Part shown: in pieces, positions 8,944 to 51,144 of the stretch
How the letters are laid out: every line of letters starts with the position of its first letter
How positions within the stretch are numbered: the first letter of the stretch is position 1
DNA from: a virus
Lineage: Duplodnaviria > Heunggongvirae > Uroviricota > Caudoviricetes
Strand: one strand, 5' to 3'
DNA: 64,000 nucleotides
IMG/VR virus record: IMGVR_UViG_3300038492_000258
Location: 108,995 to 172,994 of that record
The notes under the pieces: generated by a model
What the model was told of the DNA's origin: nothing
What the model saw: the letters and a program-made list of their open reading frames with translations, nothing else
The model's database searches: none
Position numbers and translations under genes: made by a program

Positions 8944-9325
8944 ATTAATTTGTCTAGCGGAGTTAGCTAGAACAGAAGCAATTCTCAAGGCAGCAGCAAA
9001 CAGCACAAAGAAATTTCATGAGCCCACGCTAGAATTTCATCGTGGCGTAGCCGCAACGTGTCAAAAAGTTCTAGCTTATATTGATAGCACAATTAAATCT
9101 GTCTATGATATTGTAGATGTCATAAACTGGTATGTGTCTGCTCGAAGTGACGAATGGGATTGTACTGCATATAAACCCGAAGGCTGTCATTGGGACAAAG
9201 CTATTCTTCGAAAGAATGGATATCTGGCTATTATTGATCTAGAATTAGGACACATTACTATCTGGTCCCCGCAGCAAAAACGAATTCAACCAAGTTTTCC
9301 ATATGATAATCGTTGGTGCGTCTGA
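8930..9325 (+). CDS. hypothetical protein
   Basis: 131-aa ORF overlapping neighbours by a few nt. Confidence 0.35.
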   Translation: MNQLELICLAELARTEAILKAAANSTKKFHEPTLEFHRGVAATCQKVLAYIDSTIKSVYDIVDVINWYVSARSDEWDCTAYKPEGCHWDKAILRKNGYLAIIDLELGHITIWSPQQKRIQPSFPYDNRWCV

Positions 9326-9947
9326 TTTACATGAACAATATACTAAATGGCAGGCGTCCAGCATGCCTGACGGCAATGTATTTGTAGTAACTGGAGACTT
9401 TACTTATCACGGTACGCTTCCTGAGATTGTTCGATTTGCTAAGTGGCTAGACACTATGCCTTACGAACACAAAATTGTGATTGCTGGTAATCACGATTGG
9501 TTGTTTCAAAAGGGTCAGTTTATGGCGATCGACCTTCTGAAAGAAAACTGTCCGGACGCGATTTACCTGGAAGACAGCGGATGTGTAGTAGATGGAATTC
9601 GTTTCTGGGGTAGTCCCTGGCAACCGTGGTTTTTTGACTGGGCATTCAACTTGCCTCGCGATAGCGAGGCTATACAGCGTAAATGGGACTTGATCCCAAA
9701 AGAAACAGATGTTCTCTTGACACATACGCCACCCTACGGTATAATGGACATCACTCGTGAAGGCAAGCATGTTGGGTGTGAGCGACTGACACAGTCCTTA
9801 CAAAGAATTCAGCCGAAAGCCCATATTTTTGGGCATATTCATGAGAGTTATGGTATACTAGAGCGTGGCGGCACTATCTTCGCCAACGCCTCGTCCGTTA
9901 ATAGAAATTATCGATTAGTAAACGACCCAGTGGTAATTGAGATATGA
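9303..9947 (+). CDS. calcineurin-like metallophosphoesterase
   Basis: Motifs GDFTYHG, GNHD, GHIH characteristic of metallophosphoesterases; candidate RNA end-healing 2',3'-phosphatase. Confidence 0.7.
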   Translation: MIIVGASDLHEQYTKWQASSMPDGNVFVVTGDFTYHGTLPEIVRFAKWLDTMPYEHKIVIAGNHDWLFQKGQFMAIDLLKENCPDAIYLEDSGCVVDGIRFWGSPWQPWFFDWAFNLPRDSEAIQRKWDLIPKETDVLLTHTPPYGIMDITREGKHVGCERLTQSLQRIQPKAHIFGHIHESYGILERGGTIFANASSVNRNYRLVNDPVVIEI

Positions 9948-11452
9948 TCCTGAATGCAAGCGATCTAAATTTTTGGCTGAAGTTTAGGCTCAACGTGCTT
10001 ATGGAAGGTAAGCACGGTGTGGGCAAGACTGGTATTATCGAAGAATTCTTCACACGAGAGTTCGGCGAGATTGGTCAGGATTGGCTTTACCTATCTGGAT
10101 CTACCATGGATCCATGGGTTGACTTTATTGGAGTTCCTCGTGAAGTAATGGATGAGAACGGTGAACCTTACCTACAGCTTGTTCGGCCCAAGGCTATGCG
10201 AGACGGTAAGGTGAAAGCTATTTTCATTGACGAATATAACCGTTCGCACCCGAAGGTGCGGAATGCCGTTATGGAACTAATTCAATTCAGACGGATTAAC
10301 GGACACAAGTTTCCCAATCTTCAAGTAGTTTGGGCCGCTGTTAATCCGGATAATGGTGATTACGATACGGAAGCAGTTGATCCGGCCCAGCAGGATAGAT
10401 TTGATGTCCAAGTGGCAATTCCTTATAAGCCCGATGAAGAATACTTTGCCAAAAAGTATGGTGCAAATTGGGCTGAAGCAGCCTGTGCTTGGTGGAAGAG
10501 TCTTGGTGAAGATTGGAAAGACAAAATCTCTCCTCGTCGCCTAGACAAGGCACTCTTTGTTAAAAAGAACGGTGGCAAGCTCAGCTACATTCTACCGGAA
10601 AAATGTGGTATTCAAAAACTCTCTCAAGATCTCAGTGAGGGCCCGGCTGAACGACGACTTAAAGAATTGTTTGCCAAAAACGACGTTGACGGACTTCGTA
10701 AGTTCTTGGTTGACGGCAATAACTACGATGATTGTAAGGAAGCAATCATTGAAAAAGACGAGCGTTTGCGTATGATTTTCCCGATGCTTCATCGGGAACG
10801 TCAAGTGGCATTGATTCATGAAGAGCCCCGTGTTAAGAATTACGTTTTCAATAATGCAGGATTCTTTCAACCCGTCCTAGCGACCTTGGCCACTTCTTCA
10901 CAAAACGAAAAAACTAAAAAAGAGGCACAAGCCAAACTTGACGAAATTATGGGGGCTACCGTTAGTACGGCAACCCCTACCGACAATCCTTTTGCCGGAG
11001 ATTTTGGTAGTGAGATTGCTCCAAGTAGTCGCTCGGCCGTAGCTAACACTATGTGCATTCGTGTCGATAGTCATTGTGAACGTATGCCTATCACTGGCTC
11101 AACTAGGTCAATTGGAAACGTTAGTATTAACGATGTCCGAATGGCTATCAACGGCAGCACAGATGCCAAAAAGAACTTGCTAGAAAATGATGTTGCTACT
11201 TGTGTTCATGAGAAAATGAGTAAAGAAGAGGCGATTTATGCTGGTCGAATTCTTGATCTTGTGGCTTCTCGCTCCCATGCTCGCACGATGATGCAGCTCC
11301 CAATCGTACCGTTTATTAACACTCTCGTTCATGTTTTGGGGTATACTGTAGACGAGATGTGCGAAGCCTTCCCCAATCTGATGGTTAAGGTGGTGGACAA
11401 AGTTTTGCAGGAAAATCCTGATCTAAAGGGATTTGTTTTCAAGCGTATCTAA
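9944..11452 (+). CDS. MoxR-like AAA+ ATPase
   Basis: Walker A GKHGVGKTG, Walker B IFIDEYNR, 502 aa; start overlaps previous stop (ATGA). Confidence 0.7.
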   Translation: MILNASDLNFWLKFRLNVLMEGKHGVGKTGIIEEFFTREFGEIGQDWLYLSGSTMDPWVDFIGVPREVMDENGEPYLQLVRPKAMRDGKVKAIFIDEYNRSHPKVRNAVMELIQFRRINGHKFPNLQVVWAAVNPDNGDYDTEAVDPAQQDRFDVQVAIPYKPDEEYFAKKYGANWAEAACAWWKSLGEDWKDKISPRRLDKALFVKKNGGKLSYILPEKCGIQKLSQDLSEGPAERRLKELFAKNDVDGLRKFLVDGNNYDDCKEAIIEKDERLRMIFPMLHRERQVALIHEEPRVKNYVFNNAGFFQPVLATLATSSQNEKTKKEAQAKLDEIMGATVSTATPTDNPFAGDFGSEIAPSSRSAVANTMCIRVDSHCERMPITGSTRSIGNVSINDVRMAINGSTDAKKNLLENDVATCVHEKMSKEEAIYAGRILDLVASRSHARTMMQLPIVPFINTLVHVLGYTVDEMCEAFPNLMVKVVDKVLQENPDLKGFVFKRI

Positions 11453-11454
11453 GA

Positions 11455-12765
11455 ATGGTTGAATACTACGAACTAGAGGAAGAGTTTGAACGAATTGGCA
11501 TGGGTCTTGAGCGGTGGCATGGGCTATTCGCTCAGATTTGGGCCATGGGGGTACCTCGATTCGTTGAGCATCTAAACCCTCCTACTGCTGGAGTTTCATT
11601 CAACCGTGAAGGGCGTTTTCATGAATTCCTATTTCACAGGGAATTCTGGCAAGAGCTGAATGATTACCAGCGAGAGTTTATTATTTCACATGAATGTTTG
11701 CACGTTACACTCAAGCATGGTGTGAGGTACAAAGATTGCAAAAATAAGGACCTTGGTAATATTGCTCTTGATATTGTAGTCAACCGGATGCTTTGTGAGA
11801 GCTTTGGGTTTAGTCGAACTAGACTTGGGGATCTAGGAGACGAACTAATTTGGTTAGATACTGTATTCGAAGATACTACGGGAATTGATCCCGACGAATC
11901 TTTTGAATACTACTATGCTTTACTAGAGCAGAAAATGTCTGGTGGCGGCGGTAAAGGTAATGGCAAGGGCGAAGGTAAAAGCGAGAGCAGTAAGGGCGAA
12001 GGTGGCCAATCTCCTGGTGATGGAGGAGGAATGCCTCAGCCTATTGATGTGCATGATATGCTTCCTGGCTTCGATGACGATGACGTCAAAGACAGCATAG
12101 ATGGCATGATCGAGGATGCTCTCGGTCAATTGTCAAATGAAGAATTGGATCAACTCCAAAAGGCTGGCTGCATGCCTGGTAATGGTATGCATATTGCCCG
12201 TATCTTTAAAAAGAGAAATAAGCGTAGTTGGGAAGAGATTATTGATCGTTGGACCAAAAAAGGTGCAGAAACACCTGAAGAGCAATGGACGCGTCGTAAT
12301 CGGCGGCACGTTTTCTTGTCGCCAGAATTTATGTTGCCAGCCGAAGTAGAGGATGGTAATAGTGGCAAGAAGGCTAATGTTTGGTTTTTTCAGGATACTT
12401 CTGGATCTTGCAAACATATGGCAGATGATTTCTTTAATTCTGCCATGACATTCCCAACGAAAGTATTTAAAGTTCGCATGTTTGGGTTCACCACTCATGT
12501 CTATGAAATTGATCCTAAGAAAAGAAAGTTAGAAGGATTTGGCGGCACTTACTTTCATATTATTGAAGGCCATATTCAAAAGATCTGCAAGGAAGAAAAA
12601 GTAGCATATCCTGATGCTGTATTCGTTTTTACGGATGGTTGTGGCTCTAATGTAAGGCCACAATATCCTGAACGATGGTATTGGTTCTTGGATGGTCGGG
12701 GTCAAACTAAAACATATATTCCCTCTAAATCACAACACTTCAAGCTTAAGGACTTCGTAGAATGA
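11455..12765 (+). CDS. VWA/metallopeptidase-like partner of the AAA+ ATPase (DUF2201-like)
   Basis: HECLHVTLKH (HExxH-like) N-terminal, Gly-rich linker, C-terminal VWA-like region; typical MoxR-VWA pairing. Confidence 0.5.
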   Translation: MVEYYELEEEFERIGMGLERWHGLFAQIWAMGVPRFVEHLNPPTAGVSFNREGRFHEFLFHREFWQELNDYQREFIISHECLHVTLKHGVRYKDCKNKDLGNIALDIVVNRMLCESFGFSRTRLGDLGDELIWLDTVFEDTTGIDPDESFEYYYALLEQKMSGGGGKGNGKGEGKSESSKGEGGQSPGDGGGMPQPIDVHDMLPGFDDDDVKDSIDGMIEDALGQLSNEELDQLQKAGCMPGNGMHIARIFKKRNKRSWEEIIDRWTKKGAETPEEQWTRRNRRHVFLSPEFMLPAEVEDGNSGKKANVWFFQDTSGSCKHMADDFFNSAMTFPTKVFKVRMFGFTTHVYEIDPKKRKLEGFGGTYFHIIEGHIQKICKEEKVAYPDAVFVFTDGCGSNVRPQYPERWYWFLDGRGQTKTYIPSKSQHFKLKDFVE

Positions 12766-13352
12766 AAATTTCAGATCACGTTTTTGATTATCTCGTTTCC
12801 GTTACGGACGACGAGGATATTGGAGCAACACGAAGATCAACGTTTTGGGGTTTCCTGTTATTTGGAGTCGTGGCCATTCTAGCCACCACGGGACTATATT
12901 TTAATGTAGCAGCGGCCCTGACCCTCACGCATGCGTTAGCTTGGGTTATTGGATTGCTCTGGATATTTGTTGCTGGAGTTTCTTTCCTTGGAATTGTTGG
13001 TTTATGGAGTATTAATGACTTCGATAAAAACTCGCGAAGTTATGATAATAAAATTTTCCATGAGCCGCACGTACAGTTCCGTCCAGGTTTCTTTTATCGG
13101 GTCCTAAACTGGACTGCTCGGCCGGGTTATATTGCTCTTTCGGTAATTGCTGGCTGGACTTTTCTATTGGTCGTCCAACTGCTTGCTCTGGCCGTAATGG
13201 TATTTTGTAGGCAGCAAATGAAAGGTGCCTGGCGAAAACGACTTGCTATTCTTGAATCCATGGATCCCGAAGAATTGGGGTCGATCAGGCAGCATTCACA
13301 CCCCTTTGAGGCTATGGCTAAGGCGGCCCTCGAAAATTTCGAAAAAAGTTGA
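12762..13352 (+). CDS. integral membrane protein
   Basis: About 4 hydrophobic helices. Confidence 0.4.
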   Translation: MKISDHVFDYLVSVTDDEDIGATRRSTFWGFLLFGVVAILATTGLYFNVAAALTLTHALAWVIGLLWIFVAGVSFLGIVGLWSINDFDKNSRSYDNKIFHEPHVQFRPGFFYRVLNWTARPGYIALSVIAGWTFLLVVQLLALAVMVFCRQQMKGAWRKRLAILESMDPEELGSIRQHSHPFEAMAKAALENFEKS

Positions 13353-13378
13353 GACACTCAGAAGTCTTAGTGTATAAT
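13349..13378 (+). promoter_or_regulatory. sigma70-like promoter TTGAGA-18-TATAAT
   Basis: TTGAGA at 13349, TATAAT at 13373; heads a 1.1-kb non-coding stretch. Confidence 0.45.
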
Positions 13379-13384
13379 AGTACT

Positions 13385-14215
13385 CGCGGATGAGATTCGC
13401 GACCTTCGGAAGAGGTGGGATGTAGCCCCCAAGTAGAGGTAACAGCGGCTGCGGCATCGTTAAATGCGGTGATTGTGTGGATAGAGGGAACGATAGCCAT
13501 GGATAGCTTCAACTGTCCGGGCACTCTACATGCCTTCGGGCATAGCCCTTCCGAAGAACTCTTTGACAACTTGTAATCGTACACCTGATGTTACGGTACC
13601 GTAACATCAGGAACCTAAGATAGTTACAGCAGAGAGGTAACTCTGCGGTATCGAGTATGAAGCCTCGGCATCACGTTACCAAGCATGCCAACCTCATGAA
13701 GGGAAGAGGATAAGAAAGATACCAGTAACTATTTATCTGACCCTGTCGTCTAGGCTAGGACACCCCCAATACTCAGGGGGAGACGAAGGTGCAACACCTT
13801 CCGGGGTCGCCAAACATGTTATTAACAAGCAGCTTATGGTGAAAAACTAAGGATAATGCTGACCCATAAACAAGTCCGTGGACCGATCTAAGCTTCCCCG
13901 GGCACTGCTACAATTACCACGAAGGGGTGGATAAGATTCTTGAAGTAAATAGAGACGTTCGCTTAGAAAACTATCTTTTTTATGAGGAGAACTCCGTCTC
14001 CGACAGAATTCCAAAATTGTATGTTGATAACAACTAGAGGCGAACATATTATCGCCTCTAAAGTCCAAACATGTATATGACGTAGCTACAGTCAGCATGT
14101 TTCTCTTAATCGGGCAAATTGTAGGAACGAATTCGGAATCGGCCAGCGATGTCCAGAATTCTTCGCGAGTATTAGGTTCGGACTGGCATACCCTTTTACG
14201 TCGAAGATTAAGAGT
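13385..14215 (+). ncRNA. long structured non-coding region (unknown RNA)
   Basis: No credible ORF; UUCG-capped hairpins (ATGCC-TTCG-GGCAT), long-range pairing CCTTCGGAAGAG/CTCTTCCGAAGG about 140 nt apart; the minus ORF 13847..14485 runs through tRNA genes and is spurious. Confidence 0.3.
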
Positions 14216-14224
14216 TTTTACATT

Positions 14225-14313
14225 GCCGTAGTATACCACTAGGGACGTGGAGCGGGCTGTAACCCCGTCGCCCGTAAAGGGCTGGCTAGGTTCGACTCCT
14301 AGATGCGGCACCA
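14225..14313 (+). tRNA. tRNA-Tyr (anticodon GUA), long variable arm, CCA encoded
   Basis: Anticodon arm GCGGG-CTGTAAC-CCCGT, variable arm GCCC-GTAAA-GGGC, T arm CTAGG-TTCGACT-CCTAG, ends ACCA. Confidence 0.6.
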
Positions 14314-14319
14314 AATAAT

Positions 14320-14465
14320 GGGATGGTATGTGGATGACAAGCGTGTGAAAGCTGGAACTTATGGAGAATGTAAATTGGCCAATTGCTTCCGTGAAGTAAG
14401 ATTCTTGGAGAACAAGATTTAGGCAGACCGGGCGTTGTGTTTGGGTTCGACTCCCAACCATTCCA
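14320..14465 (+). tRNA. tRNA-Ala-like paralog carrying an insertion of about 70 nt
   Basis: Same acceptor (GGGATGG/CCATTCC with G3.U70), D region and T arm as the tRNA-Ala at 6671..6747, but about 146 nt long. Confidence 0.35.
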
Positions 14466-14474
14466 TCAATCAAG

Positions 14475-14502
14475 TTGACAACCACTAGTATCGAGGTATA
14501 AT
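14475..14502 (+). promoter_or_regulatory. consensus sigma70 promoter TTGACA-16-TATAAT giving a leaderless transcript
   Basis: TATAAT ends 6 nt before the ATG at 14509. Confidence 0.5.
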
Positions 14503-14508
14503 GAGACC

Positions 14509-16590
14509 ATGAACAAGCAAGAAATTCTTATTAAGAAGCGTGATGCGATCGAAGCTCGTCCGGCAGCTCGTGCTCGTGCGGCAGATCTGAAAGATCCTCG
14601 TGCTTTGGTTTTCCAAGCCGAAGCCATGAGGCTTGGATTTATCCTCAGCGAAGACCTTTTGTCTACCATTAGTCGTCTGAGCGACACCGCAATTATGGCC
14701 CTCTACAAAGAAGTGGTGCCTGTTCTGCGGAACATGGTCGGCGATGATGTCGAGTGGAAGCCGATGTATCCTAACTTCCCGAAGCAAGTTATGGAGGCAC
14801 CGGTTATTGAGCTTTTCCTTAACGCTATCGTTCACTATTGGTCGGGCGGACAATGGACGCCCGATTATGTCGCTGAGCCTCGTTTGCCGGCATTTGAAGC
14901 AACAAAATTCCGCACTCTGTCCCTTGCCGGGAGCGACGACCTAGCTTCTATCTTTACAGAAATTCTGTCCGCAAACGCTTCTGTTACGCCTGCGGATATC
15001 CGTATGCTCACGGAAATGTTTGATCGTGGCGATATTAATGAAGCTCAATTGGCAGCGGCCCTTCCGGATAATATTCCGTTTAGAGAAACTCTCTGCTGGT
15101 TTGTTGGTGAATGTATCGATCGTGGATGGACCGTGACGGGCATGGGAGCACTCAAAACGGCTACCGACGTATTGCGGGTAGCTACCCACCTTTCTCAAGG
15201 AGATGTTTCTCTTGCTGAGAATACTCGCTATCGTAGCTTTAGTCGCCCCTTGCGTAGGGCCTTCGTTGAAAGGTTGGAGCAAGTAGCGAACCAGAACGAT
15301 GTTTTCCGTCATCGTGGTAAATGGGTGCGTCTAGCTCACTCGTTACACGTTGGAGACTTTAGTGCCCAAGCACCTAATTTCTACAACATGATTACGGCTG
15401 CTCGGAGTAATGCTACTAAATATCAAAGCTTTGATGGTCGTGTAGAATCCGCCATTGCAAATCGCGACCGTAAGGGCGTTTGTAGTCTCCTAAAGCAACG
15501 TCCTGGTGTATTCGCACGTCGTCTTGATCATCTTCTGCGAGAATTTGGTCCCCGTGATATTGCACGGGAATTCATTGGTGTGGTTGATAAGGTAGATACG
15601 CGAGTACTGCTACAACTGCATGGTCATTTCAATGGACGTACTCAGAGCGTCGATCGTCGTTTGGTATTCCCGAAGGGCAATATGGGTAAGGCACGTTTGC
15701 TTACTAATACGCTAGAGGCTCTGCCTACGGCAACCGTAAAGCATATTCGTGATGGTATTGAAAGTGCTCTAGAGGCACGTTTTGCGACCCTAGATCCTCT
15801 TGGAAAAGTTTATATCGATAAGACACTTTGGGATTGCCCAATTCCATTGAGCCTACGTTCTGCATCCGAAGGGCTACAAACTGTCGCCCGAGGCACACGA
15901 ATGCCGATTGGGGATAAGGGTACCGTTCGGATGTTTATCTACTGGAAAGGTCGTGACATTGATCTTTCTGGATTCTTGGTAAATGAAGACTTTACGCAAG
16001 AAAGTACTGTCGCTTATTACAATCTAAGAGAAGGTTTCGGATGTCACTCTGGCGATATTACGAATGCTCCTCGTGGTGCTTCTGAGTTTATTGACATTAA
16101 TGTCGATCAAGCTTTGGCTGAAGGTCATCGTTACCTAGTAATGACCGTTCATGTATATTCTGGTCCTACTTTTAAGGAGCACGAAGTTTGTTATGCGGGC
16201 TGGATGACCAGAAGTCATCCTGGCAGTAATGAGATTTACGATCCCAAAACTGTTCAGCACCGCATCGATGTGCAGGCCGATAGCCGCACGGCTGTGCCTG
16301 TTATGTTTGACCTAAAAGAAAGACAAGCGATTTGGCTTGACTTGGTCCAACGTGGTGGTAATCTAAGGCGTCCTAACAATGTTGCGAACAGCAAGGCTGG
16401 CCTTGTGGATTTCATTGATGGGGCATTGAATATGGATAATAAGCCAACGCTCTTCGAGCTATTCGAAATGCATGCAAGAGCACGAGGTACGATCGTTGAC
16501 AATATGAATGATGCCGATAAAGTCTTCTCTTGGTCTGAAGGCACGAAGCCTACGGATGTATCAGAGATTCTTTCAGAGTATCTTGGTTGA
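14509..16590 (+). CDS. large hypothetical protein (693 aa)
   Basis: Long uninterrupted ORF; helical N-terminal two-thirds, C-terminal region with degenerate vWA-like DIDLSGF segment; function unknown. Confidence 0.45.
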   Translation: MNKQEILIKKRDAIEARPAARARAADLKDPRALVFQAEAMRLGFILSEDLLSTISRLSDTAIMALYKEVVPVLRNMVGDDVEWKPMYPNFPKQVMEAPVIELFLNAIVHYWSGGQWTPDYVAEPRLPAFEATKFRTLSLAGSDDLASIFTEILSANASVTPADIRMLTEMFDRGDINEAQLAAALPDNIPFRETLCWFVGECIDRGWTVTGMGALKTATDVLRVATHLSQGDVSLAENTRYRSFSRPLRRAFVERLEQVANQNDVFRHRGKWVRLAHSLHVGDFSAQAPNFYNMITAARSNATKYQSFDGRVESAIANRDRKGVCSLLKQRPGVFARRLDHLLREFGPRDIAREFIGVVDKVDTRVLLQLHGHFNGRTQSVDRRLVFPKGNMGKARLLTNTLEALPTATVKHIRDGIESALEARFATLDPLGKVYIDKTLWDCPIPLSLRSASEGLQTVARGTRMPIGDKGTVRMFIYWKGRDIDLSGFLVNEDFTQESTVAYYNLREGFGCHSGDITNAPRGASEFIDINVDQALAEGHRYLVMTVHVYSGPTFKEHEVCYAGWMTRSHPGSNEIYDPKTVQHRIDVQADSRTAVPVMFDLKERQAIWLDLVQRGGNLRRPNNVANSKAGLVDFIDGALNMDNKPTLFELFEMHARARGTIVDNMNDADKVFSWSEGTKPTDVSEILSEYLG

Positions 16591-43806: not shown

Positions 43807-43880
43807 AGGTCGTTAGTGTAGTGGTAACACAACAGATTCCAAATCTGTATACCGGGGTTCGATTCCTCGGCGGCCTGCCA
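43807..43880 (+). tRNA. tRNA-Trp (anticodon CCA), CCA encoded
   Basis: Anticodon arm ACAGA-TTCCAAA-TCTGT, T arm CGGGG-TTCGATT-CCTCG; separated from tRNA-Val by 1 nt. Confidence 0.65.
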
Positions 43881-43894
43881 ATACGGAGCAATTA

Positions 43895-44086
43895 ATGCCA
43901 ACATACGATTACAAGTGTATGGCCTGTGGCCATAGCCTGGAAATTTTCCAGAAAATCACCGAAGGTGCCAAACGAAAATGCCCCGAGTGTGGAGCACTCA
44001 AGCTAAAGCGGCAGATTGGCACCGGAGGTGCTATTATTTTCAAAGGTGAAGGATTTCACTGCAACGACTATCCGAAAAATGAGTAA
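43895..44086 (+). CDS. FmdB-family zinc-ribbon protein
   Basis: MPTYDYKCMACGH...CPECG. Confidence 0.45.
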   Translation: MPTYDYKCMACGHSLEIFQKITEGAKRKCPECGALKLKRQIGTGGAIIFKGEGFHCNDYPKNE

Positions 44087-44576: not shown

Positions 44577-44628
44577 AGGCCCTGAGGAGCAAAATCTACT
44601 AAATACCCCTTCCTCCGAATTCTGTAAT

Positions 44629-45357: not shown

Positions 45358-45362
45358 AACAT

Positions 45363-45438
45363 GCCCTCATAGTGTAATGGACCAGCACAAGTGTCTTCTA
45401 AACATTTAGTCCAGGTTCGAATCCTGGTGGGGGTACCA
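45363..45438 (+). tRNA. tRNA-Arg (anticodon UCU), CCA encoded
   Basis: Anticodon arm AGTGT-CTTCTAA-ACATT, T arm CCAGG-TTCGAAT-CCTGG. Confidence 0.65.
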
Positions 45439-45829: not shown

Positions 45830-46363
45830 ATGGATACTGTACAAGATATTACATTAGAAAATTTCAAGGAGCGTACCGGAGCACGCTTTCGCATGACGGA
45901 AGAACAGCGGGCTCGTGTCGTTCTTACCGGTTTTTCTGACGAGCAGCGAGCAACGCTCGCAAGCTTGTCAGATATTGAATCTGAATTGGCGGACTTCTTT
46001 AATGAAAAGAAGTATCGTAAATGGATGGGCAAAGCTCATGGCCTGGCGGGACAATGGACTGCCGAACTAGAGCTGAATAGAGAGGGTGCATTTAGGGAGT
46101 TTGTCGAACAAGGTGGACTCGAACGTGTACGCACCCGTCAACCGGTTATTCCTCTGTCTGTTTGGGTGGACCCTGATCTCACTTTAGAGAATTTCGCGGC
46201 AAAGGTCCAAGAGGCAACAGGCGTAGCCAATCGTAAGTTTCGTCGGCTCAAAGAACACTTTGCGAGGAACAACTCGCAACTCGAACGTGATCTGACACCT
46301 GCCGAAGCTTTGTTAGATGTTATTTCACGTAAACGTATTGAATTCACTAAGGAAAATCAATGA
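45830..46363 (+). CDS. hypothetical protein
   Basis: 177-aa ORF. Confidence 0.4.
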   Translation: MDTVQDITLENFKERTGARFRMTEEQRARVVLTGFSDEQRATLASLSDIESELADFFNEKKYRKWMGKAHGLAGQWTAELELNREGAFREFVEQGGLERVRTRQPVIPLSVWVDPDLTLENFAAKVQEATGVANRKFRRLKEHFARNNSQLERDLTPAEALLDVISRKRIEFTKENQ

Positions 46364-46758
46364 ATCTAAATACCGTTATTCTTCAGGGCAACCTCGTTTC
46401 TGATCCGGAATTTGTTGGCGAGAACGGTAGTGTTGCTCGCTTTACTATCGCTTCCAACAGTGGCTTCGGTGAGAAACGCGAAGTCGATTATATCGATTGC
46501 GTCGCCTTTGGCAAGCAGGTCGATATCATTCGTCAATACTCTGGTAAAGGTCGCTTCGTGACCGTTCGTGGTCGTCTCCGTCAGAACCGCTGGCAGACCC
46601 CAGAAGGCGAGAACCGTTCGAAATTAGAAGTTCGGTTGGACAACTTTGACGGCTTCTATCTCGGCCCCCGTGGCAGCAACGCCGATGAGAGCAACGTTGC
46701 CGAGCCTACCGTTACTGCTGGAGCCGAAGGCGGAAGCGGTGAGCAACCGCTTTTCTAA
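46360..46758 (+). CDS. ssb: single-stranded DNA-binding protein
   Basis: OB-fold SSB pattern (VILQGNL..DPE...RFTIA...DCVAFGKQ...RFVTVRGRLRQNRWQ) and acidic tail ending PLF. Confidence 0.75.
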   Translation: MNLNTVILQGNLVSDPEFVGENGSVARFTIASNSGFGEKREVDYIDCVAFGKQVDIIRQYSGKGRFVTVRGRLRQNRWQTPEGENRSKLEVRLDNFDGFYLGPRGSNADESNVAEPTVTAGAEGGSGEQPLF

Positions 46759-46831
46759 GAAACGACTTGACTGATCTCCTGTAGGGGATATACTAGTGCG
46801 GGGTCATAGTGCCCCGCACTATTTTTATACA

Positions 46832-47299
46832 ATGAAAAAACTCATTATCATTCGCGGTCCTAGCGGTTCTGGTAAAACTACGATTGCTGCTAGCATTGGT
46901 CGTCACCAGGATTATAGTGTGTCTTGGCATGAAGCTGACGATTTTTTCGTTGGTGAAGATGGAGAGTATCATTTTAATCCTCAGTATCTTGGACAAGCTC
47001 ACAAGTCATGCCAGGATTCTGTTCGCGTTGAAATGTGTTACGAACGCTCGATTATTGTGGTTAGTAATACTTCAATGAAGCGTTGGGAGATGAATCCCTA
47101 TTTGCAGCTCGCACGAGAATTTGATTATGACATCGAAGTAATTCGTACGCCTGGCCCGTGGAACGCACAAGAGAGCTTTGAGCGTAACCTGCATGGTGTG
47201 CCCCTAACAACTATCGAAAAACAAATCGCTAAATACGAACCCTATGAGGGGGAGTTTGAGTGGCCTGATATTACTTATGAACGACGAGAACAAGAATAA
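46832..47299 (+). CDS. polynucleotide 5'-kinase-like P-loop protein (T4 Pnk kinase-domain-like)
   Basis: MKKLIIIRGPSGSGKTT and ERSIIVVSNTSMKRWE parallel T4 Pnk MKKIILTIGCPGSGKST and VIISDTNLNPERR; no HAD phosphatase domain. Confidence 0.5.
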   Translation: MKKLIIIRGPSGSGKTTIAASIGRHQDYSVSWHEADDFFVGEDGEYHFNPQYLGQAHKSCQDSVRVEMCYERSIIVVSNTSMKRWEMNPYLQLAREFDYDIEVIRTPGPWNAQESFERNLHGVPLTTIEKQIAKYEPYEGEFEWPDITYERREQE

Positions 47300-47606
47300 C
47301 CTGTCGGCTAAGAAAAGTCTTTGTTATACTTGCAAGCATGGTTTGTGTATTGCACAACAAATGCACGCACAGGTGCTCGGGGAAATTACAGAACAAGAAG
47401 TCGAGAGTGAAGACCTCTTAGATATTCCGTGGGACGACGGAACCGAACCGGCTTCGGAGATTCCGCACGGAATGCAGCATCTTCAGATGGACAGAGTGTG
47501 CTCGCTGTGTTACTATAACCCGCCGGGTCGCACTGATCCCCCCACTATCAATGCTGCCGTTATCACGGATTGCAACCGATATGAACGAGACGATTCTATC
47601 CAATAA
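47278..47606 (+). CDS. hypothetical Cys-rich protein
   Basis: About 109 aa, CYTCKHGLC. Confidence 0.3.
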
Positions 47607-48888
47607 ACACATTGATCTATGTACGGGACTCCGAGATGTTGGGGCGACTCCCTACATTGTCGGTGGTTGTGTACGTGATATGTTGTTAGGGCGTCGTCCC
47701 AAAGATATCGACATTGTTGTTGTCGGTATTGACGAGAACGATTTAATCGACAGAATGGATGCCGCTGGATGGAACATCAAGTGTGTCGGTGCAGCATTTC
47801 CTGTATATCTAATTAATGATATCGAAGTGGCCTTGGCTCGTAAAGAACACAAGGTCGCGGAAGGGCATCGTGGTTTCGAATGCGACACTGCAAATATTAC
47901 GCTGGAAGAAGATCTCTTCCGTCGTGACCTGACTATTAATGCTATTGCAATGGACCCATTTAGTGGAGACATTATCGATCCATACAATGGCGTACAACAC
48001 ATTAAGGGACAAATTCTAAACCCTGTTAGTCAACATTTTGCAGAGGACCCGCTACGTGTCCTGCGGGCGGCACGTTTCGCTGCACAACTAGATTTCAATA
48101 GTACAGATGAACTAAAACTGGCGGCAGCCAATGTTCTCCCTGAATTAATTGATCTATCCGGTGAACGTGTATTTGGAGAACTACTAAAAGCTCTCCGTAG
48201 TGATCGTCCTAGTAAATTCATTACAGTATTGGATGAACTTGGTGCCCTGGAAATTGTATTCCCTGAGATCTACAATCTCAAAGGGCGTGTTCAACCAGAG
48301 AAATATCATCCCGAGGGTGATGCATACGTACATACATTACTTGTTCTAGATCGCTGCCGTGCTCTCGGGGGTGACGATGAAACAATGTATGCAGCCTTAT
48401 TACATGATTTAGGTAAGGCGGTCACCCCCGACGACAATTTACCTCACCATTATGATCACGAGCGTCTCGGCGTTCCTCTTGTGAGGACCTTATCCGAACG
48501 CATTAAGGCTCCCACAAGCTTTCGCAAAACTGCTGAAACTGCTTCGCGGGAACATCTTAACGTGCATCGTTTTGATACAATGAAACCGATTAAGAAGGTG
48601 AGAATGATTGTGAGGCTCGGGGCCTTACAAAATGATCTACTATTGCGTAGGGTGGCTCTCGCCTCACAGGCTGACGCTCAGGGACGTGGTCCTGATTTTA
48701 TTGATGCCCCTTATCCAAGCAGAATCAATCTGATTAAGGCGGCTGAAGTTGCTCGCAGTGTAAGGGGTCATGAGTTTGCCCACCTAAAGAACGGGCGAGT
48801 TATTGCACAGAAAATGGAGGCCGCTAGAGCTAAGGCTTTAGAGGCCGCAGGATTCCGTAAGGTAGGAAATAGTTATGGTAACAATTAA
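47551..48888 (+). CDS. cca: tRNA nucleotidyltransferase (CCA-adding enzyme) with HD domain
   Basis: Head-domain motif GGCVRDMLLGRRPKDIDIVV, C-terminal HD (HHYDHERLG). Confidence 0.75.
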   Translation: MLPLSRIATDMNETILSNKHIDLCTGLRDVGATPYIVGGCVRDMLLGRRPKDIDIVVVGIDENDLIDRMDAAGWNIKCVGAAFPVYLINDIEVALARKEHKVAEGHRGFECDTANITLEEDLFRRDLTINAIAMDPFSGDIIDPYNGVQHIKGQILNPVSQHFAEDPLRVLRAARFAAQLDFNSTDELKLAAANVLPELIDLSGERVFGELLKALRSDRPSKFITVLDELGALEIVFPEIYNLKGRVQPEKYHPEGDAYVHTLLVLDRCRALGGDDETMYAALLHDLGKAVTPDDNLPHHYDHERLGVPLVRTLSERIKAPTSFRKTAETASREHLNVHRFDTMKPIKKVRMIVRLGALQNDLLLRRVALASQADAQGRGPDFIDAPYPSRINLIKAAEVARSVRGHEFAHLKNGRVIAQKMEAARAKALEAAGFRKVGNSYGNN

Positions 48889-49248
48889 AGCTATCGAAGA
48901 AAAACTAGTAGAGTACGGCTATAAGCCGCGTTGGGAAAAGCGAGGACCATTGTGGCGATTCTATGCGTGTAACGCTATTTGGTCACAAGAAAAAACTCGC
49001 CATGCTGCTGCCGTCAGAGTTCAAAAACTAGTTTTTGAGAACGATGACTGATATAAAAGATGTCTTTAGAGGTATTATTCCTAAATGGCATGAAGTTTTG
49101 CTGTTTGTGCTATCTTTAATTGCTCTTGGGGTAATGGTTGGAGCACTCTTATGAGTGCTATCGACGAGAAGGTTAATGAAATCAGGCGTCAAGTCATACT
49201 TATTGTCGTAATTATATTTCTTCTTGGTCTTATTGCTGGGGTCATCTT

Positions 49249-49530
49249 ATGAACGAAAGTCAACCCTCACTTCGACGGTTCCTATTTGTTCGCGACGAAG
49301 ACGTTTCTGGTGTTAGTGGCGTAGGCGTTGTAGCAGAAGGAACCGAATTTACAGACGGCTCAATTGTGATTCGGTGGCTTAGTCACATGGCATCGTTTGG
49401 TACATTTGCTAATATCAAAGCCTTCCAGTCTATCCATGGTCATAATGGCAAGGGCAAGATTGAATGGCTAGATCCAGAGCCCACCGACGAAGAGCCAAAG
49501 AAAAGTACTTCAAAAAGAAAAAGTAAGTAG
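49249..49530 (+). CDS. hypothetical protein
   Basis: 93-aa ORF. Confidence 0.35.
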   Translation: MNESQPSLRRFLFVRDEDVSGVSGVGVVAEGTEFTDGSIVIRWLSHMASFGTFANIKAFQSIHGHNGKGKIEWLDPEPTDEEPKKSTSKRKSK

Positions 49531-49549
49531 TGTACTCATCCTCCATGGG

Positions 49550-50074
49550 TTGGATTGTCCAACCCTATTCAACAGGAGGAATTGTATGAGTGCATTAACA
49601 CAATCGCAAATTGATACTCTGGCCGAAGGCTGGAAACTGAAGGTAGCGGGCCAAGCTCAGTATGAATATCATCGTATGAGCGAAATCGCTAAGTTAATCT
49701 CGGAGGAAAATTGGGATGAGGTAAAGGTCCAGTTAACATTTGGTAAAGATAAGTACGTGGTTCATACGCTTGCTTTGGATATCTTTTATCTAATGTTACA
49801 AAGTGCTCTGGGCAGACGAGTTCCCGAGGAGGAGGCTGTCGGTGACTTATCTGAGCAGGATATGCTTTTCCTGGAAAACAAATATAACGAATTTGCTCCC
49901 ACGGTACCTGTTATTATCGCCAATCTTGAATCTCTTTTGACCTTCTTAAACTCGGGCAATACTGGCCCGGAGTTTATTTTACTATTTGACACTACTAAGT
50001 TGCTAACGCACGAGCTGTTTGTGAAAGAGCAAGCATGGACTCACCACTTCCAGGCGTTAGCTTATGAGCAATGA
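49550..50074 (+). CDS. hypothetical protein
   Basis: 174-aa ORF. Confidence 0.4.
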   Translation: MDCPTLFNRRNCMSALTQSQIDTLAEGWKLKVAGQAQYEYHRMSEIAKLISEENWDEVKVQLTFGKDKYVVHTLALDIFYLMLQSALGRRVPEEEAVGDLSEQDMLFLENKYNEFAPTVPVIIANLESLLTFLNSGNTGPEFILLFDTTKLLTHELFVKEQAWTHHFQALAYEQ

Positions 50075-51144
50075 AAGACAGTCTACTTTTAAATAAAATT
50101 TGGAAAGAGGTGGAGGCTGGCAATGTGTCCGCCAGCCGCACCGACAACCTTACTATATTCAAATATACTCAGGATTGTCATATTCAGGGTAATTGGAATG
50201 ACGTTAATCGTCAGTGTCGAGGAATCATATTCCGCGATGACGGCACCGTTGTAGCTAGACCCTTTTCTAAATTTTTCAATTTAAATGAGCTTCCTGAAAC
50301 TGAGCCTCGAAATCTCCCATGGCGTGAGGGGATAGAGGTATACGAAAAGCTCGATGGTAGCTGTGGCACGGGGTATCGTAAAGAAACGTGGGATGCTGGT
50401 ATTGGTACACATACGAAATGGTTTATAGCAACGCCAGGCAGCATGGAATCAGACCAGGCTGTCGAGGGTACTGCCATGCTTGGTATGTACAATCTAGAAT
50501 TCATGCCACAAAACTGTACACCAGTATTCGAGATTATCTATCCTGATAATAGAATTGTCGTAGATTATAACGGTTTTCGTGGATTGGTATTGTTAGCTAT
50601 CTTCGATCACAACGGAGAAGAGTGGCATCCACGTCGTGTAGACAGTATTGCTGAAGTTTGTGGTTTCCGCAGACCAAAAGTATATGACATCGATATTCGT
50701 GGAGAGATTCCTTTTGAGGATAACGCTGAAGGCTATGTCGCAAGATTTGGTTGTGGCACGCGTGTGAAAATCAAAAGCCCAGCTTACCTCAGGATTCATA
50801 GATTGTTGGATCGTCTCTCGCCCAAAGGAGTTATCGAACTAATGCAGGGCAGAGAATACGGTATGACTGTGCGTCAATTACCTGACTCTATCGCCAAGGA
50901 TTTCGACGATATCCGTGCTCATGTCCAGGGAGTCTTTAACTCTGTTCTTACAGAAGTTGGCGAGAAATATCGTGACATGATGGAGACCGTTGGTCAACAT
51001 GCGAATCGAAAAGCCTATGCTATGTGGATTGCGGAGAACGCACCGCAAGAACTTGCTGGCTTTGTTTTTGCTATGATGGATGGCAAAGATTTCGATCATA
51101 AGATTTGGAAGCTAGTATTAGAGAAAGTTACCAATGGTTCATAA
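50071..51144 (+). CDS. RNA ligase 1 (T4 RnlA-like tRNA repair ligase)
   Basis: CRGIIFRDDG, RPFSKFFNLNELPE and motif I EKLDGS (Lys at about residue 99) parallel T4 Rnl1 CRGIMFEMDG, RPMEKFFNLNENPF, KEDGS; similar length. Confidence 0.8.
   Translation: MKDSLLLNKIWKEVEAGNVSASRTDNLTIFKYTQDCHIQGNWNDVNRQCRGIIFRDDGTVVARPFSKFFNLNELPETEPRNLPWREGIEVYEKLDGSCGTGYRKETWDAGIGTHTKWFIATPGSMESDQAVEGTAMLGMYNLEFMPQNCTPVFEIIYPDNRIVVDYNGFRGLVLLAIFDHNGEEWHPRRVDSIAEVCGFRRPKVYDIDIRGEIPFEDNAEGYVARFGCGTRVKIKSPAYLRIHRLLDRLSPKGVIELMQGREYGMTVRQLPDSIAKDFDDIRAHVQGVFNSVLTEVGEKYRDMMETVGQHANRKAYAMWIAENAPQELAGFVFAMMDGKDFDHKIWKLVLEKVTNGS

What the first reader, a model, noticed from the sequence alone, without database searches (positions are those of the whole stretch)
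9303..51144. Dispersed RNA/tRNA repair toolkit alongside more than 30 tRNA genes
The window carries a T4 Rnl1-like ligase (50071..51144; very close motif-by-motif match to T4 RnlA), an Rnl2-like ligase (35546..36631), a T4-Pnk-like kinase domain without phosphatase (46832..47299), a metallophosphoesterase that could supply the missing 2',3'-phosphatase (9303..9947), a CCA-adding enzyme (47551..48888), a Pth2-like hydrolase and an RF homolog. Together with the large tRNA complement, this argues the phage is heavily invested in resisting host tRNA-directed suicide nucleases and translation shutdown.
Basis: partly seen in the sequence, partly recalled or inferred. Interest (0 to 1): 0.5.

Follow-up and report, generated by a model that had tools for sequence, protein, structure and literature searches.

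The report
Phage tRNA-repair cluster, amber-gated hydrolase
A large uncultured phage carries 28 tRNA genes and a conserved gene block for mending broken tRNAs, which is a known kind of phage equipment, but one of its genes (a Pth2-type hydrolase) has a conserved stop codon just after its start and usually sits beside a phage tRNA that reads that stop codon, which appears to be undescribed.

Summary
Most of the listed genes exist, but several labels were wrong. Rnl1 (50071..51144) is real but distant from T4 RnlA (31% identity). The "Rnl2-like" ligase is a DraRnl/NgrRnl (Rnl5) type. The kinase matches the T4 Pnk kinase domain at profile level. The phosphoesterase at 9303 belongs to the MPPED2 family: diesterase only, 37 kb away, with only rare links to repair modules. 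There are 28 tRNAs, not more than 30, and all encode CCA.

The core is not dispersed. Kinase, Zn-ribbon, CCA/HD and Rnl1 span 4.4 kb, and five relatives hold the Rnl5-type ligase, SSB, kinase, Zn-ribbon, CCA/HD and Rnl1 in about 8 kb. Kinase homologs have an RNA ligase within 5 kb in 32 of 80 viral loci. The likely function is heal-and-seal tRNA repair, with the HD domain as the probable 3' end healer. This concept is already published for large phages.

The unexpected result concerns the Pth2-fold gene. It begins SD-ATG-AAA-TAG, and this in-frame amber codon is conserved in 27 of 33 non-redundant homolog loci. A tRNA(CUA) lies within 2.5 kb in 16 of those 27, and the phages otherwise use the standard code.

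The parts
46832..47299 (+). Kinase-only protein related to the T4 Pnk kinase domain (phrog_2071 clade). Predicted 5'-OH polynucleotide kinase.
   Evidence: PF13671 36 bits. phrog_2071 98 bits and phrog_505 'polynucleotide kinase' 44 bits. hhalign against T4 Pnk 98%, E=1.7e-13. AF2 pLDDT 91.8; T4 Pnk rmsd 2.8 A, CthPnkp 3.1-3.3 A. An RNA ligase lies within 5 kb in 32 of 80 homolog loci.
47244..47606 (+). Cys-rich (Zn-ribbon-like) 120-aa protein of unknown role, always found between the kinase and CCA/HD in this lineage.
   Evidence: No Pfam or PHROG hit. Homologs directly follow the kinase in L006, L047, L049 and L098-L101.
47551..48888 (+). Class II CCA-adding/repair enzyme with a C-terminal HD phosphoesterase domain. 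Predicted to restore CCA ends and to be the module's 2',3'-cyclic phosphate/phosphate remover.
   Evidence: PF01743, PF12627 and PF01966; NF008137 354 bits. H..HD..D motifs intact. HD-domain chemistry from PMC10673834, which cites Yakunin 2004.
50071..51144 (+). Rnl1-family ATP-dependent RNA ligase (the sealing step).
   Evidence: 47-73% identical orthologs in syntenic relatives.
35546..36631 (+). DraRnl/NgrRnl (Rnl5)-type RNA ligase: N-terminal OB domain plus nucleotidyltransferase domain.
   Evidence: PF21189 plus PF09414; TIGR02306 141 bits; PDB 5COT/6VT3 E=3e-12; phrog_968 168 bits. Adjacent to the kinase block in L049 and L098-L101.
21370..22488 (+). ATP-dependent DNA ligase. It sits next to the Rnl5-type ligase in three relatives.
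   Evidence: PF01068 plus PF14743. L049, L098 and L099.
46360..46758 (+). SSB, the conserved upstream neighbour of the kinase. A terminator-like hairpin at 46794..46821 separates them.
   Evidence: PF00436; synteny; hairpin.
22997..23879 (+). NUDIX (22997..23467) plus cREC 'cyclic-phosphate processing receiver' (23460..23879). A candidate cyclic-phosphate or ADPr>P processor, located here beside NAD+ salvage genes.
   Evidence: PF00293 and PF20274. Literature prediction only. A cREC-like ORF lies between Rnl1 and the kinase in phage TH18.
9303..9947 (+). MPPED2-family metallophosphodiesterase. Doubtful member of the toolkit.
   Evidence: PDB 3RL4 E=7.5e-53. Family chemistry. Context analyses.
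13739..45438 (+). 25 tRNA genes interspersed with protein genes, including tRNA(CUA). All encode the 3' CCA.
6587..7781 (-). 3 tRNA genes (Gln-CUG, Ala-UGC, Met-CAU), each with an encoded CCA.
17824..17900 (+). Amber-suppressor-type tRNA with anticodon CUA.
   Evidence: ARAGORN. Rfam tRNA 33.8 bits. Clean cloverleaf and CCA end. Counterparts next to Pth2-like genes in 16 of 27 TAG-bearing loci.
18552..18866 (+). Pth2-fold hydrolase gene with an in-frame TAG at 18558..18560 (codon 3), after GGAG-N7-ATG.
   Evidence: Conservation of the TAG.
27217..27756 (+). Truncated RF1-type release factor (179 aa). It has PPT at the PxT position and GGQ, but lacks domain 1 and the first half of domain 2.
   Evidence: A 43%-identical homolog sits about 1 kb from the tRNA(CUA)-Pth2 pair in L081/L082.

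Best explanation
The window contains the spread-out form of a conserved phage RNA heal-and-seal module.

Shown: the genes, their families and their conserved linkage.

[quoted passage not shown] The Pnk-like kinase (46832..47299) phosphorylates the 5'-OH. The HD domain of the adjacent CCA enzyme (47551..48888) opens and removes the cyclic or terminal phosphate, possibly helped by cREC or the MPPED2-like diesterase. Rnl1 (50071..51144) then seals the break. The nucleotidyltransferase half of the CCA enzyme restores damaged CCA ends. It is not needed to build them, because all 28 phage tRNA genes encode CCA. The Rnl5-type ligase probably seals nicks in duplex RNA or RNA-DNA hybrids. The 28 tRNAs replace or supplement host tRNAs.

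Separately, the Pth2-fold gene, the tRNA(CUA) and probably the truncated RF1 form a UAG-decoding circuit. The hydrolase is made only when the amber codon two codons after its start is read through.
For: Family assignments.

Cluster and synteny: the kinase-ZnR-CCA/HD-Rnl1 order is conserved in L006 at 45-60% identity. The compact block Rnl5-(DNA ligase)-SSB-kinase-ZnR-CCA/HD-Rnl1 appears in L049 and L098-L101.

Independent lineages: the kinase lies directly beside Rnl1 in Aeromonas 2L372X, Vibrio Gary, Nitrincola 1M3-16, E. coli TH18, L047 and L048.

Scale: 32 of 80 kinase loci have an RNA ligase and 24 of 80 a small calcineurin-like phosphoesterase within 5 kb.

Phosphoesterase slot: modules with CCA/HD mostly lack the small phosphoesterase (7 of 8), while modules without CCA/HD mostly have it (25 of 33). 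Fisher p=0.002, not corrected for phylogeny.

Other points: the HD motifs are intact and all tRNAs encode CCA. HD-domain activity on 2',3'-cyclic phosphate tRNA ends is reported in PMC10673834. T4 itself keeps pseT and rnlA about 1.4 kb apart.

UAG circuit.
Against: Nothing here is biochemical.

The kinase family lacks counterparts of T4 Pnk R38 and R126. Its fold matches gluconate, APS and PSTK kinases with similar E-values.

36 of 80 kinase loci show no partner with my limited tblastn panel, and L050 has none.

Synteny within one clade may be inherited and need not reflect function. The relative L006 has both CCA/HD and the small phosphoesterase, so the HD-substitution idea is not strict.

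The known HD activity concerns the tRNA 3' terminus, not an anticodon-loop break.

Only 64 kb of a contig of at least 182 kb was examined, so a dedicated phosphatase could lie elsewhere.

The host and its nucleases are unknown.
Confidence: 0.6

Rival explanations
1. One reading: the metallophosphoesterase at 9303..9947 is the 3' end-healing partner of the kinase and Rnl1.
For: The MPPED family prefers 2',3'-cyclic nucleotides (PMC10547211). It is the only calcineurin-fold protein that the small-phosphoesterase HMM detects in the window (E=4e-4). The small phosphoesterase usual in such modules is missing here. An MPPED-like gene lies within 4 kb of the kinase-ligase module in 3 of 80 loci, and in L138 it is directly adjacent.
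Against: The family has no monoesterase activity, so it could not finish healing. There is no match to lambda-phosphatase or Pnkp-type phosphatases. The gene is 37 kb from the kinase, with start and stop overlaps tying it to a MoxR-AAA/DUF2201 operon. Of 39 viral MPPED loci, none has homologs of the window's repair genes within 6 kb. One of 140 flanking ORFs is an RNA ligase. In Tunturi_5 its neighbours are nucleotide-metabolism genes.
Confidence: 0.2
2. The module does housekeeping, not counter-defence. It matures and quality-controls the phage's own large tRNA set and other RNAs during infection, when host RNA is degraded. No anticodon nuclease is involved.
For: All tRNAs encode CCA, so the CCA enzyme is a maintenance enzyme. 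The block sits among SSB, DNA ligase and nucleotide-metabolism genes. No nuclease inhibitor or known target was identified.
Against: The kinase, phosphoesterase and ligase triad is the signature of repair of nuclease-made breaks, as in T4 Pnk/Rnl1 and Pnkp. The published view links these modules to conflict. Anti-defence genes lie nearby: Gad2-like here, and Acb5 in L047.
Confidence: 0.25
3. The kinase and ligases act on DNA or RNA-DNA junctions, processing nicks during replication or repair, and not on tRNA.
For: Conserved neighbours are SSB and an ATP-dependent DNA ligase. Rnl5-type ligases seal nicks in duplexes (established for DraRnl/NgrRnl; my own knowledge). T4 Pnk also acts on DNA.
Against: Rnl1 and the CCA enzyme are tRNA-directed families. 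The kinase is most often linked to Rnl1 or to the small phosphoesterase, not to DNA ligase (5 of 80).
Confidence: 0.12
4. For the Pth2-like gene: the SD-ATG-(1-4 codons)-TAG is a tiny upstream ORF (a minigene), and the hydrolase is made by reinitiation downstream, not by suppression.
For: 9 of 27 loci have an ATG, GTG or TTG between the TAG and the conserved core. Lambda bar minigenes have the same SD-AUG-codon-stop layout and interact with peptidyl-tRNA hydrolase (my own knowledge).
Against: 18 of 27 loci, including the window, have no canonical start in that interval, and some lack near-cognate codons as well. The codons right after the TAG are conserved at protein level with synonymous changes: window, L053 and L055 read T-H-F/Y-F. 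The first beta-strand of the fold lies there. A tRNA(CUA) gene is linked.
Confidence: 0.2

Closest known systems
T4 Pnk (pseT) plus Rnl1 (rnlA) repair of PrrC-cleaved tRNA-Lys
   Same: The kinase domain is homologous to T4 Pnk residues 1-155. The ligase belongs to the Rnl1 family and keeps all nucleotidyltransferase motifs. The two genes are clustered, as in T4.
   Different: There is no HAD phosphatase domain on the kinase. T4 residues R38 and R126 are not conserved. Rnl1 is only 31% identical, and its C-terminal domain is not detectably similar. A CCA/HD enzyme and a Zn-ribbon protein sit between the kinase and the ligase. The target nuclease is unknown.
Bacterial Pnkp/Hen1 and Pnkp1-Rnl-Hen1 RNA repair systems
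   Same: The same triad logic of kinase, metallophosphoesterase and ligase. Pnkp1 is the best sequence match for the kinase in the PDB (4XRP, E=5e-4). CthPnkp kinase is among the best fold matches.
   Different: The proteins are separate here, not fused. There is no Hen1 methyltransferase. The window has no lambda-phosphatase-type domain. Relatives use a distinct calcineurin-like protein of about 190 aa.
Phage neighbourhoods of T4-like tRNA ligase, cREC, nucleotide kinase, sirtuin and calcineurin-like phosphoesterase (Iyer et al., Viruses 2022, PMC9503650), and jumbo-phage RNA repair plus tRNA sets (PMC7824862)
   Same: The same kinase family occurs next to Rnl1 in rV5-like phage TH18, together with a cREC-like ORF and SIR2. 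The concept of many tRNAs plus ligases, kinases and phosphoesterases is already described there.
   Different: This lineage has no sirtuin in the block. It has CCA/HD and a Zn-ribbon protein in the phosphoesterase slot. cREC sits with Nudix and NAMPT, 23 kb away.
E. coli-type multifunctional CCA-adding enzyme (Cca) with HD domain
   Same: Same three-domain architecture and intact HD motifs. NF008137 scores 354 bits over positions 4-403 of 409.
   Different: The score is below the equivalog cutoff of 451. The enzyme is phage-encoded and embedded between a polynucleotide kinase and Rnl1.
Stop-codon-based translational control and recoding: prfB autoregulation at an in-frame UGA, and TAG-recoded phages with suppressor tRNAs (e.g. 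bioRxiv 10.1101/2021.08.26.457843)
   Same: An in-frame stop codon early in a translation-factor-like gene. The phage encodes a tRNA(CUA) and a release-factor homolog.
   Different: No frameshift is needed. Only this one gene shows the feature, always 2-5 codons after the start. The phages otherwise use TAG as a stop (14 of 72 genes here) and show no gain from reading TAG as sense.

Membership tests
Rnl1 (T4 RnlA) RNA ligase family | Nucleotidyltransferase motifs I (KxDG lysine), Ia, III, IV and V | tested here: met
   KLDG, RGIIF, FEIIYP, EGYVA and KIKS align to the T4 Rnl1 motifs. PF09511 scores 62 bits against a cutoff of 28.
Rnl1 (T4 RnlA) RNA ligase family | Rnl1-specific C-terminal (tRNA-specificity) domain | tested here: inconclusive
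   The TIGR02308 alignment runs to profile position 343 of 373 but scores only 60 bits against 242. BLASTP finds no significant C-terminal similarity to T4. phrog_562 covers residues 22-353.
Rnl2 family | Rnl2 nucleotidyltransferase domain plus the Rnl2-specific C-terminal domain, with no N-terminal OB domain | tested here: not met
   TIGR02307 scores 29 bits against a cutoff of 197 and covers only the NTase part. An N-terminal OB domain is present instead.
Rnl5 (DraRnl/NgrRnl) family | N-terminal OB domain followed by the nucleotidyltransferase domain, matched over the full length | tested here: met
   PF21189 on residues 5-96 plus PF09414 on 156-346. TIGR02306 scores 141 bits over positions 7-341 of 341, just under the cutoff of 151. 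NgrRnl gives E=3e-12.
T4 Pnk-type polynucleotide kinase (kinase domain) | P-loop and catalytic Asp (T4 D35) | tested here: met
   The RGxxGSGKS/T P-loop is present, and D36 is invariant in 28 family members and aligned to T4 D35.
T4 Pnk-type polynucleotide kinase (kinase domain) | Phosphoacceptor-binding arginines (T4 R38 and R126) | tested here: not met
   R38 aligns to Phe. The R126 segment is deleted, and the family signature there is RNxHGVP.
T4 Pnk-type polynucleotide kinase-phosphatase | C-terminal HAD (DxDxT) 3'-phosphatase domain | tested here: not met
   The protein is 155 aa and consists of the kinase domain only.
Polynucleotide kinase activity on 5'-OH RNA | Enzymatic activity | not testable with these tools
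   Inferred from homology and from linkage to RNA ligases in 32 of 80 loci.
Pnkp / lambda-phosphatase-type RNA 3' end-healing metallophosphoesterase | Sequence membership in the lambda-Pase/Pnkp clade, which has diesterase plus monoesterase activity | tested here: not met
   The only PDB matches at E<=0.1 are MPPED2. The MPPED family lacks monoesterase activity.
MPPED1/2 class III metallophosphodiesterase | Strong full-length similarity, including the metallophosphoesterase motifs | tested here: met
   3RL4 gives E=7.5e-53 in two stretches covering query residues 13-213. PF00149 scores 57 bits.
Class II CCA-adding enzyme with HD domain (Cca type) | Pol-beta head, RNA-binding domain and HD domain with H..HD..D | tested here: met
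   PF01743, PF12627 and PF01966. NF008137 scores 354 bits, far above PcnB at 128. The motifs can be read in the sequence.
Pth2 peptidyl-tRNA hydrolase | Pth2 fold | tested here: met
   AF2 pLDDT 92.7. The top 13 Foldseek PDB hits are all Pth2 proteins (TM 0.71-0.78), followed by a sharp drop. PF01981 gives E=2.7e-4.
Pth2 peptidyl-tRNA hydrolase | Catalytic residues and hydrolase activity | tested here: inconclusive
   The family invariants are D10, Q19, H22, E70-P71, T78 and T82. The Asp and Thr positions resemble those of Pth2, but the conserved Lys of archaeal Pth2 seems to be replaced by Gln. That comparison is from memory and was not aligned here. Activity was not tested.
Class I release factor RF1 | Full four-domain architecture with the PxT and GGQ motifs | tested here: not met
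   Only RF1 residues ~166-340 (E. coli numbering) are present. PPT and GGQ are present, but domain 1 and the first half of domain 2 are absent.
TAG-recoded (code 15-like) phage | In-frame TAG in many genes, and a coding-density gain when TAG is read as sense | tested here: not met
   TAG ends 14 of 72 genes. Reading TAG as sense gains no more than reading TGA or TAA as sense, in the window and in 38 homolog loci. ORFs of 514 aa and at least 1073 aa beyond the window are intact.

The most novel reading that the evidence does not exclude
Many large phages that use the standard genetic code carry a two-gene cassette. One gene is an amber-suppressor tRNA(CUA). The other is a Pth2-fold hydrolase whose mRNA has an obligatory in-frame UAG 2-5 codons after an SD-AUG start. 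Synthesis of the hydrolase is therefore gated by, or feeds back on, the balance between UAG suppression and RF1 termination, and the truncated RF1 (and, in some phages, a tmRNA) belongs to the same circuit. This would be a phage counterpart of prfB-style autoregulation, built on a suppressor tRNA instead of a frameshift.
Probability: 0.45. Interest if true: 0.8.

Novelty: new variant of a known kind. Interest (0 to 1): 0.55.

Why it matters
The repair block shows a variant of the classic T4 heal-and-seal pathway. The kinase has lost its phosphatase domain, and a CCA/HD enzyme takes the slot that a small phosphoesterase fills in most other versions of the module. This yields a testable prediction: the HD domain of a CCA enzyme can heal nuclease-made tRNA breaks.

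It also assigns a widespread phage 'ATPase' family (phrog_2071) to RNA repair by linkage.

The amber-gated Pth2-like gene may matter more. It suggests that phage suppressor tRNAs are not used only for whole-genome recoding, and can also act as switches for single genes. It offers a simple reporter-testable system for studying how phages manipulate stop-codon decoding. It also explains why gene callers truncate this gene.

Tried and rejected
1. No near-identical phage exists in GenBank (megablast), so annotation transfer was impossible.
2. The 242-aa ORF at 44629..45357, with a CCA-like 'GGALRR..DFDLFF' motif, was considered as a second tRNA nucleotidyltransferase. It was rejected because it is about 32% identical to proteins carrying Pfam Gad2 (anti-Gabija) hits.
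3. A strict either/or distribution of CCA/HD and the small phosphoesterase was proposed and then weakened, because L006 has both.
4. Sequencing error or pseudogene as the explanation for the TAG was rejected. An independent contig is identical over 3,255 nt, and the TAG is conserved in 27 of 33 divergent loci.
5. General TAG recoding was rejected.
6. Ro60/TROVE identity for the 693-aa protein next to the YrlA-like RNA found no support.
7. The amino-acid identity of the suppressor tRNA could not be inferred. It has no close paralog among the phage's tRNAs, and the discriminator base varies (U, A or G) among homologous cassettes.
9. GS linkers in my concatenated Pfam queries produced spurious 'Serglycin' hits. 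These were ignored, and X linkers were used afterwards.

Full report
WHAT THE WINDOW IS. The 64-kb window comes from a large uncultured phage. An identical kinase protein lies on a JGI contig of 182,158 bp. No GenBank phage is close at the DNA level, and the best protein matches are 33-45% identical. GC content is about 45%, and genes run mainly on the + strand between about 8 and 62.5 kb.

THE tRNA SET. Rfam supports 23 at gathering threshold. A smaller E-value-mode search adds the CUA tRNA at 33.8 bits. Three of the other four ARAGORN-only genes hit other models of the tRNA clan below threshold, and the Ser(ACU) call at 13739 has no Rfam hit. All 28 genes end in an encoded N-CCA, which supports their being real genes. 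They cover 19 amino acids (no Cys), plus one tRNA with anticodon CUA.

CHECK OF EACH NAMED GENE.
- Rnl1 (50071..51144). This is a true Rnl1-family ligase. PF09511 scores 62 bits, phrog_562 216 bits, and T4 Rnl1 structures match at E=1e-11. Motifs I, Ia, III, IV and V align with those of T4 RnlA. Identity is only 31% over 213 residues, the C-terminal domain is not detectably similar by BLASTP, and the T4-type equivalog model scores 60 against a cutoff of 242.
- 'Rnl2-like' ligase (35546..36631). This was misfiled. It has an N-terminal OB domain (PF21189) followed by PF09414. It matches the DRB0094 model over its full length (141 bits) and Naegleria NgrRnl in the PDB. That is the DraRnl/NgrRnl (Rnl5) architecture.
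It is a 155-aa kinase-only protein. A 28-sequence profile aligns to T4 Pnk residues 1-155 with 98% probability (E=1.7e-13), including the P-loop and the catalytic Asp. T4 residues R38 and R126 have no counterpart. A confident model (pLDDT 91.8) superposes best on T4 Pnk (2.8 A) and C. thermocellum Pnkp (3.1-3.3 A). Other small-molecule P-loop kinases score similar E-values.
- CCA enzyme (47551..48888). It has the E. coli-type three-domain layout, including an HD domain with intact H..HD..D motifs.
- Phosphoesterase (9303..9947). It is a close relative of mammalian MPPED2 (E=7.5e-53) and shows no match to lambda-phosphatase or Pnkp-type enzymes.
- RF homolog (27217..27756). It corresponds only to RF1 residues ~166-340. 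It keeps a PxT-type tripeptide (PPT) and GGQ, and it fits RF1 better than RF2 or PrfH.
- Pth2-like gene (~18552..18866). Pfam is borderline (21.5 bits against 23). Its model (pLDDT 92.7) matches only Pth2 structures, at TM 0.71-0.78.

THE CORE IS A CONSERVED MODULE, NOT A DISPERSED KIT. The kinase, a Cys-rich 120-aa protein, CCA/HD and Rnl1 occupy 46832..51144 on one strand. A terminator-like hairpin (46794..46821) lies just upstream.
- A relative at 45-60% protein identity keeps the same order (L006).
- Five further relatives (L049, L098-L101) hold the Rnl5-type ligase, SSB, kinase, Zn-ribbon, CCA/HD and Rnl1 within about 8 kb. In three of them a DNA ligase lies next to the Rnl5-type ligase.
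- So the window's layout is a spread-out version of a compact block, with tRNA genes and other genes inserted.
- The same kinase family sits directly beside Rnl1 in unrelated phages: Aeromonas 2L372X, Vibrio Gary, Nitrincola 1M3-16, rV5-like TH18, L047 and L048. In each there is also a calcineurin-like phosphoesterase of about 190 aa.
- In 80 viral loci retrieved through the kinase alone, a tblastn panel finds an RNA ligase within 5 kb in 32 and the small phosphoesterase in 24. For the MPPED-like family the figure is 1 ligase in 38 loci (Fisher p=6e-6).
- T4 itself keeps pseT and rnlA about 1.4 kb apart.
- This linkage is the main support for calling the kinase a polynucleotide kinase.

WHICH ENZYME HEALS THE 3' END? 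The window, L049 and L098-L101 lack the small phosphoesterase. A family HMM finds only a weak hit to the MPE at 9303 (E=4e-4). In exactly these genomes CCA/HD lies between the kinase and Rnl1. Across all modules, 7 of 8 with CCA/HD lack the small phosphoesterase, and 25 of 33 without CCA/HD have it (p=0.002, not phylogeny-corrected). L006 has both.

HD domains of CCA enzymes are reported to remove 2',3'-cyclic phosphates from tRNA 3' ends (PMC10673834, citing Yakunin et al. 2004). I therefore favour the HD domain as the healer. This is an inference.

Two other candidates exist:
- A cREC domain (23460..23879) next to a Nudix gene is predicted in the literature to process cyclic phosphates. A cREC-like ORF lies between Rnl1 and the kinase in TH18.
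- The MPPED2-like enzyme belongs to a family that prefers 2',3'-cAMP but cannot hydrolyse monoesters.

The MPE's context argues against a dedicated role. It overlaps a MoxR-AAA/DUF2201 operon. Thirty-nine viral homolog loci lack the window's repair genes. In Tunturi_5 it sits with nucleotide-metabolism genes. Even so, 3 of 80 kinase modules have an MPPED-like gene within 4 kb, one of them directly adjacent, so a minor role is not excluded.

WHAT IS KNOWN. The idea that large phages combine many tRNAs with RNA ligases, polynucleotide kinases, phosphoesterases and cREC to counter attacks on translation is already published. So is a neighbourhood of T4-like ligase, cREC, nucleotide kinase and sirtuin in rV5-like phages (PMC7824862, PMC9503650). 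The present block is a variant of that theme. The counter-defence purpose itself cannot be tested here.

THE UNEXPECTED FINDING. The Pth2-like gene reads GGAG-N7-ATG AAA TAG ACA CAC TTC TTT..., and the homologous protein sequence begins right after the TAG. JGI called only a truncated 84-aa product.
- An independent contig is identical over 3,255 nt, so sequencing error is unlikely.
- Homologs at 60% and 51% identity have the same feature: ATG TTG TAG ACA CAT TTT TTC, and ATG AAT GGT CCA TAG ATC....
- In 33 non-redundant loci, 27 have an in-frame TAG 7-14 codons before the conserved R-x-D-L core. In two HD-domain fusions the distance is 189 codons.
- 26 of the 27 have ATG 1-4 codons before the TAG, 21 of them with a Shine-Dalgarno motif. 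18 of the 27 have no ATG, GTG or TTG between the TAG and the core.
- None of 597 other ORFs in the same loci has an SD-ATG-(<=3 codons)-TAG leader.
- Codons just after the TAG are conserved as protein with synonymous changes, and they form the first beta-strand of the fold.
- A tRNA(CUA) gene lies within 2.5 kb in 16 of 27 TAG loci against 1 of 6 others (p=0.085), often immediately upstream. In the window it lies about 650 nt upstream (17824..17900).
- These phages are not recoded. TAG ends 14 of 72 window genes. Reading TAG as sense improves ORF coverage no more than the TGA or TAA controls. Genes of 514 aa and at least 1073 aa beyond the window are intact.
- A truncated RF1 lies beside the pair in L081/L082, and a tmRNA lies beside the tRNA(CUA) in L074.
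- Two literature searches found no description of this pairing. That is absence in the searchable library only.

The most likely reading is that the phage's suppressor tRNA decodes the UAG, which gates hydrolase synthesis. A minigene-plus-reinitiation mechanism is the main rival.

VERDICT. The repair block is a new variant of a known kind. The amber-gated Pth2-like cassette is the part worth following up.

Noticed in passing
window 18552..18866 with 17824..17900; loci L053-L090: There is a conserved in-frame TAG 2-5 codons after the SD-ATG start of a Pth2-fold gene (27 of 33 non-redundant loci). It is usually linked to a tRNA(CUA) gene, in phages that otherwise use the standard code.
   Followed up: yes
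window 27217..27756; L081/L082 961..1470: A truncated RF1-type protein (179 aa, with PPT and GGQ, lacking domain 1 and half of domain 2). A 43%-identical copy lies about 1 kb from the tRNA(CUA)-Pth2 pair in another phage.
   Followed up: partly
window 16722..16787 (with flanks ~16696..16812) and 16880..16933: A sub-threshold but specific YrlA (Y RNA-like) match: 42 bits, with the permuted T-arm, hairpin and D-arm tRNA mimic. The flanks can form a terminal stem. A second partial tRNA-like element lies 100 nt downstream. No Ro/TROVE protein was found in the window.
   Followed up: partly
window 41195..41284 and 20138..20227: tRNA-Lys(UUU) and tRNA-Asn(GUU) are 90 nt long and carry a class II-like extra arm, which is unusual for these isoacceptors. 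Lys(UUU) is the classic PrrC target.
   Followed up: partly
window 13739..13812: ARAGORN calls a tRNA with anticodon ACU ('Ser'). It has no Rfam support, although it ends in CCA. Its identity is doubtful.
   Followed up: no
window 22997..26474: An NAD+ salvage and ADPr-processing cluster: Nudix, cREC, NAMPT (PF18127 plus PF04095) and an NMNAT-like protein of 393 aa. It resembles the phage systems that rebuild NAD+ against depletion defences.
   Followed up: no
window 44629..45357; L047 3750..4511; L049 10102..10716: A 242-aa nucleotidyltransferase-like ORF is about 32% identical to proteins carrying Pfam Gad2 (anti-Gabija) hits. L047 also has an Acb5-annotated small ORF between its kinase and Rnl1.
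   Followed up: partly
window 8509..16590: The MPE is the third gene of a tightly overlapping run. The run includes a MoxR-type AAA+ protein (502 aa), a DUF2201_N protein (436 aa) and a membrane protein. It is followed by a 693-aa MXAN_6230/SCO0854-family 'RING domain' protein (NF041916, 380 bits). Function is unknown.
   Followed up: no
window 44016..44576, 57045..57995, 58724..60767: Further translation- or RNA-related genes: a SpoT-like HD hydrolase, a weak YhaM-like OB-fold exoribonuclease (NCBIfam 40 bits), methionine aminopeptidase, peptide deformylase and PhoH.
   Followed up: no
L068 and L076 (~2501 upstream region): In two phages the Pth2-like domain is fused to a ~180-aa N-terminal HD-type domain. 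The SD-ATG-3 codons-TAG leader is kept in front of the longer ORF.
   Followed up: partly
L074 3295..3800: A phage tmRNA gene lies 54 nt after the tRNA(CUA) next to the TAG-bearing Pth2-like gene. This hints at a link to ribosome rescue.
   Followed up: no
window 18950..19291: A 113-aa protein of unknown function is conserved directly downstream of the Pth2-like gene in at least six other loci (L053, L055, L057, L058, L065, L066).
   Followed up: partly
window 34912..35616: A phage-encoded ion-channel protein (PF00520 and PF07885) overlaps the start of the Rnl5-type ligase gene.
   Followed up: no
window 48889..49248: A 360-nt ORF-free gap follows CCA/HD. It is the slot where relative L006 carries the small phosphoesterase. 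There is no Rfam hit and no remnant of that gene.
   Followed up: partly
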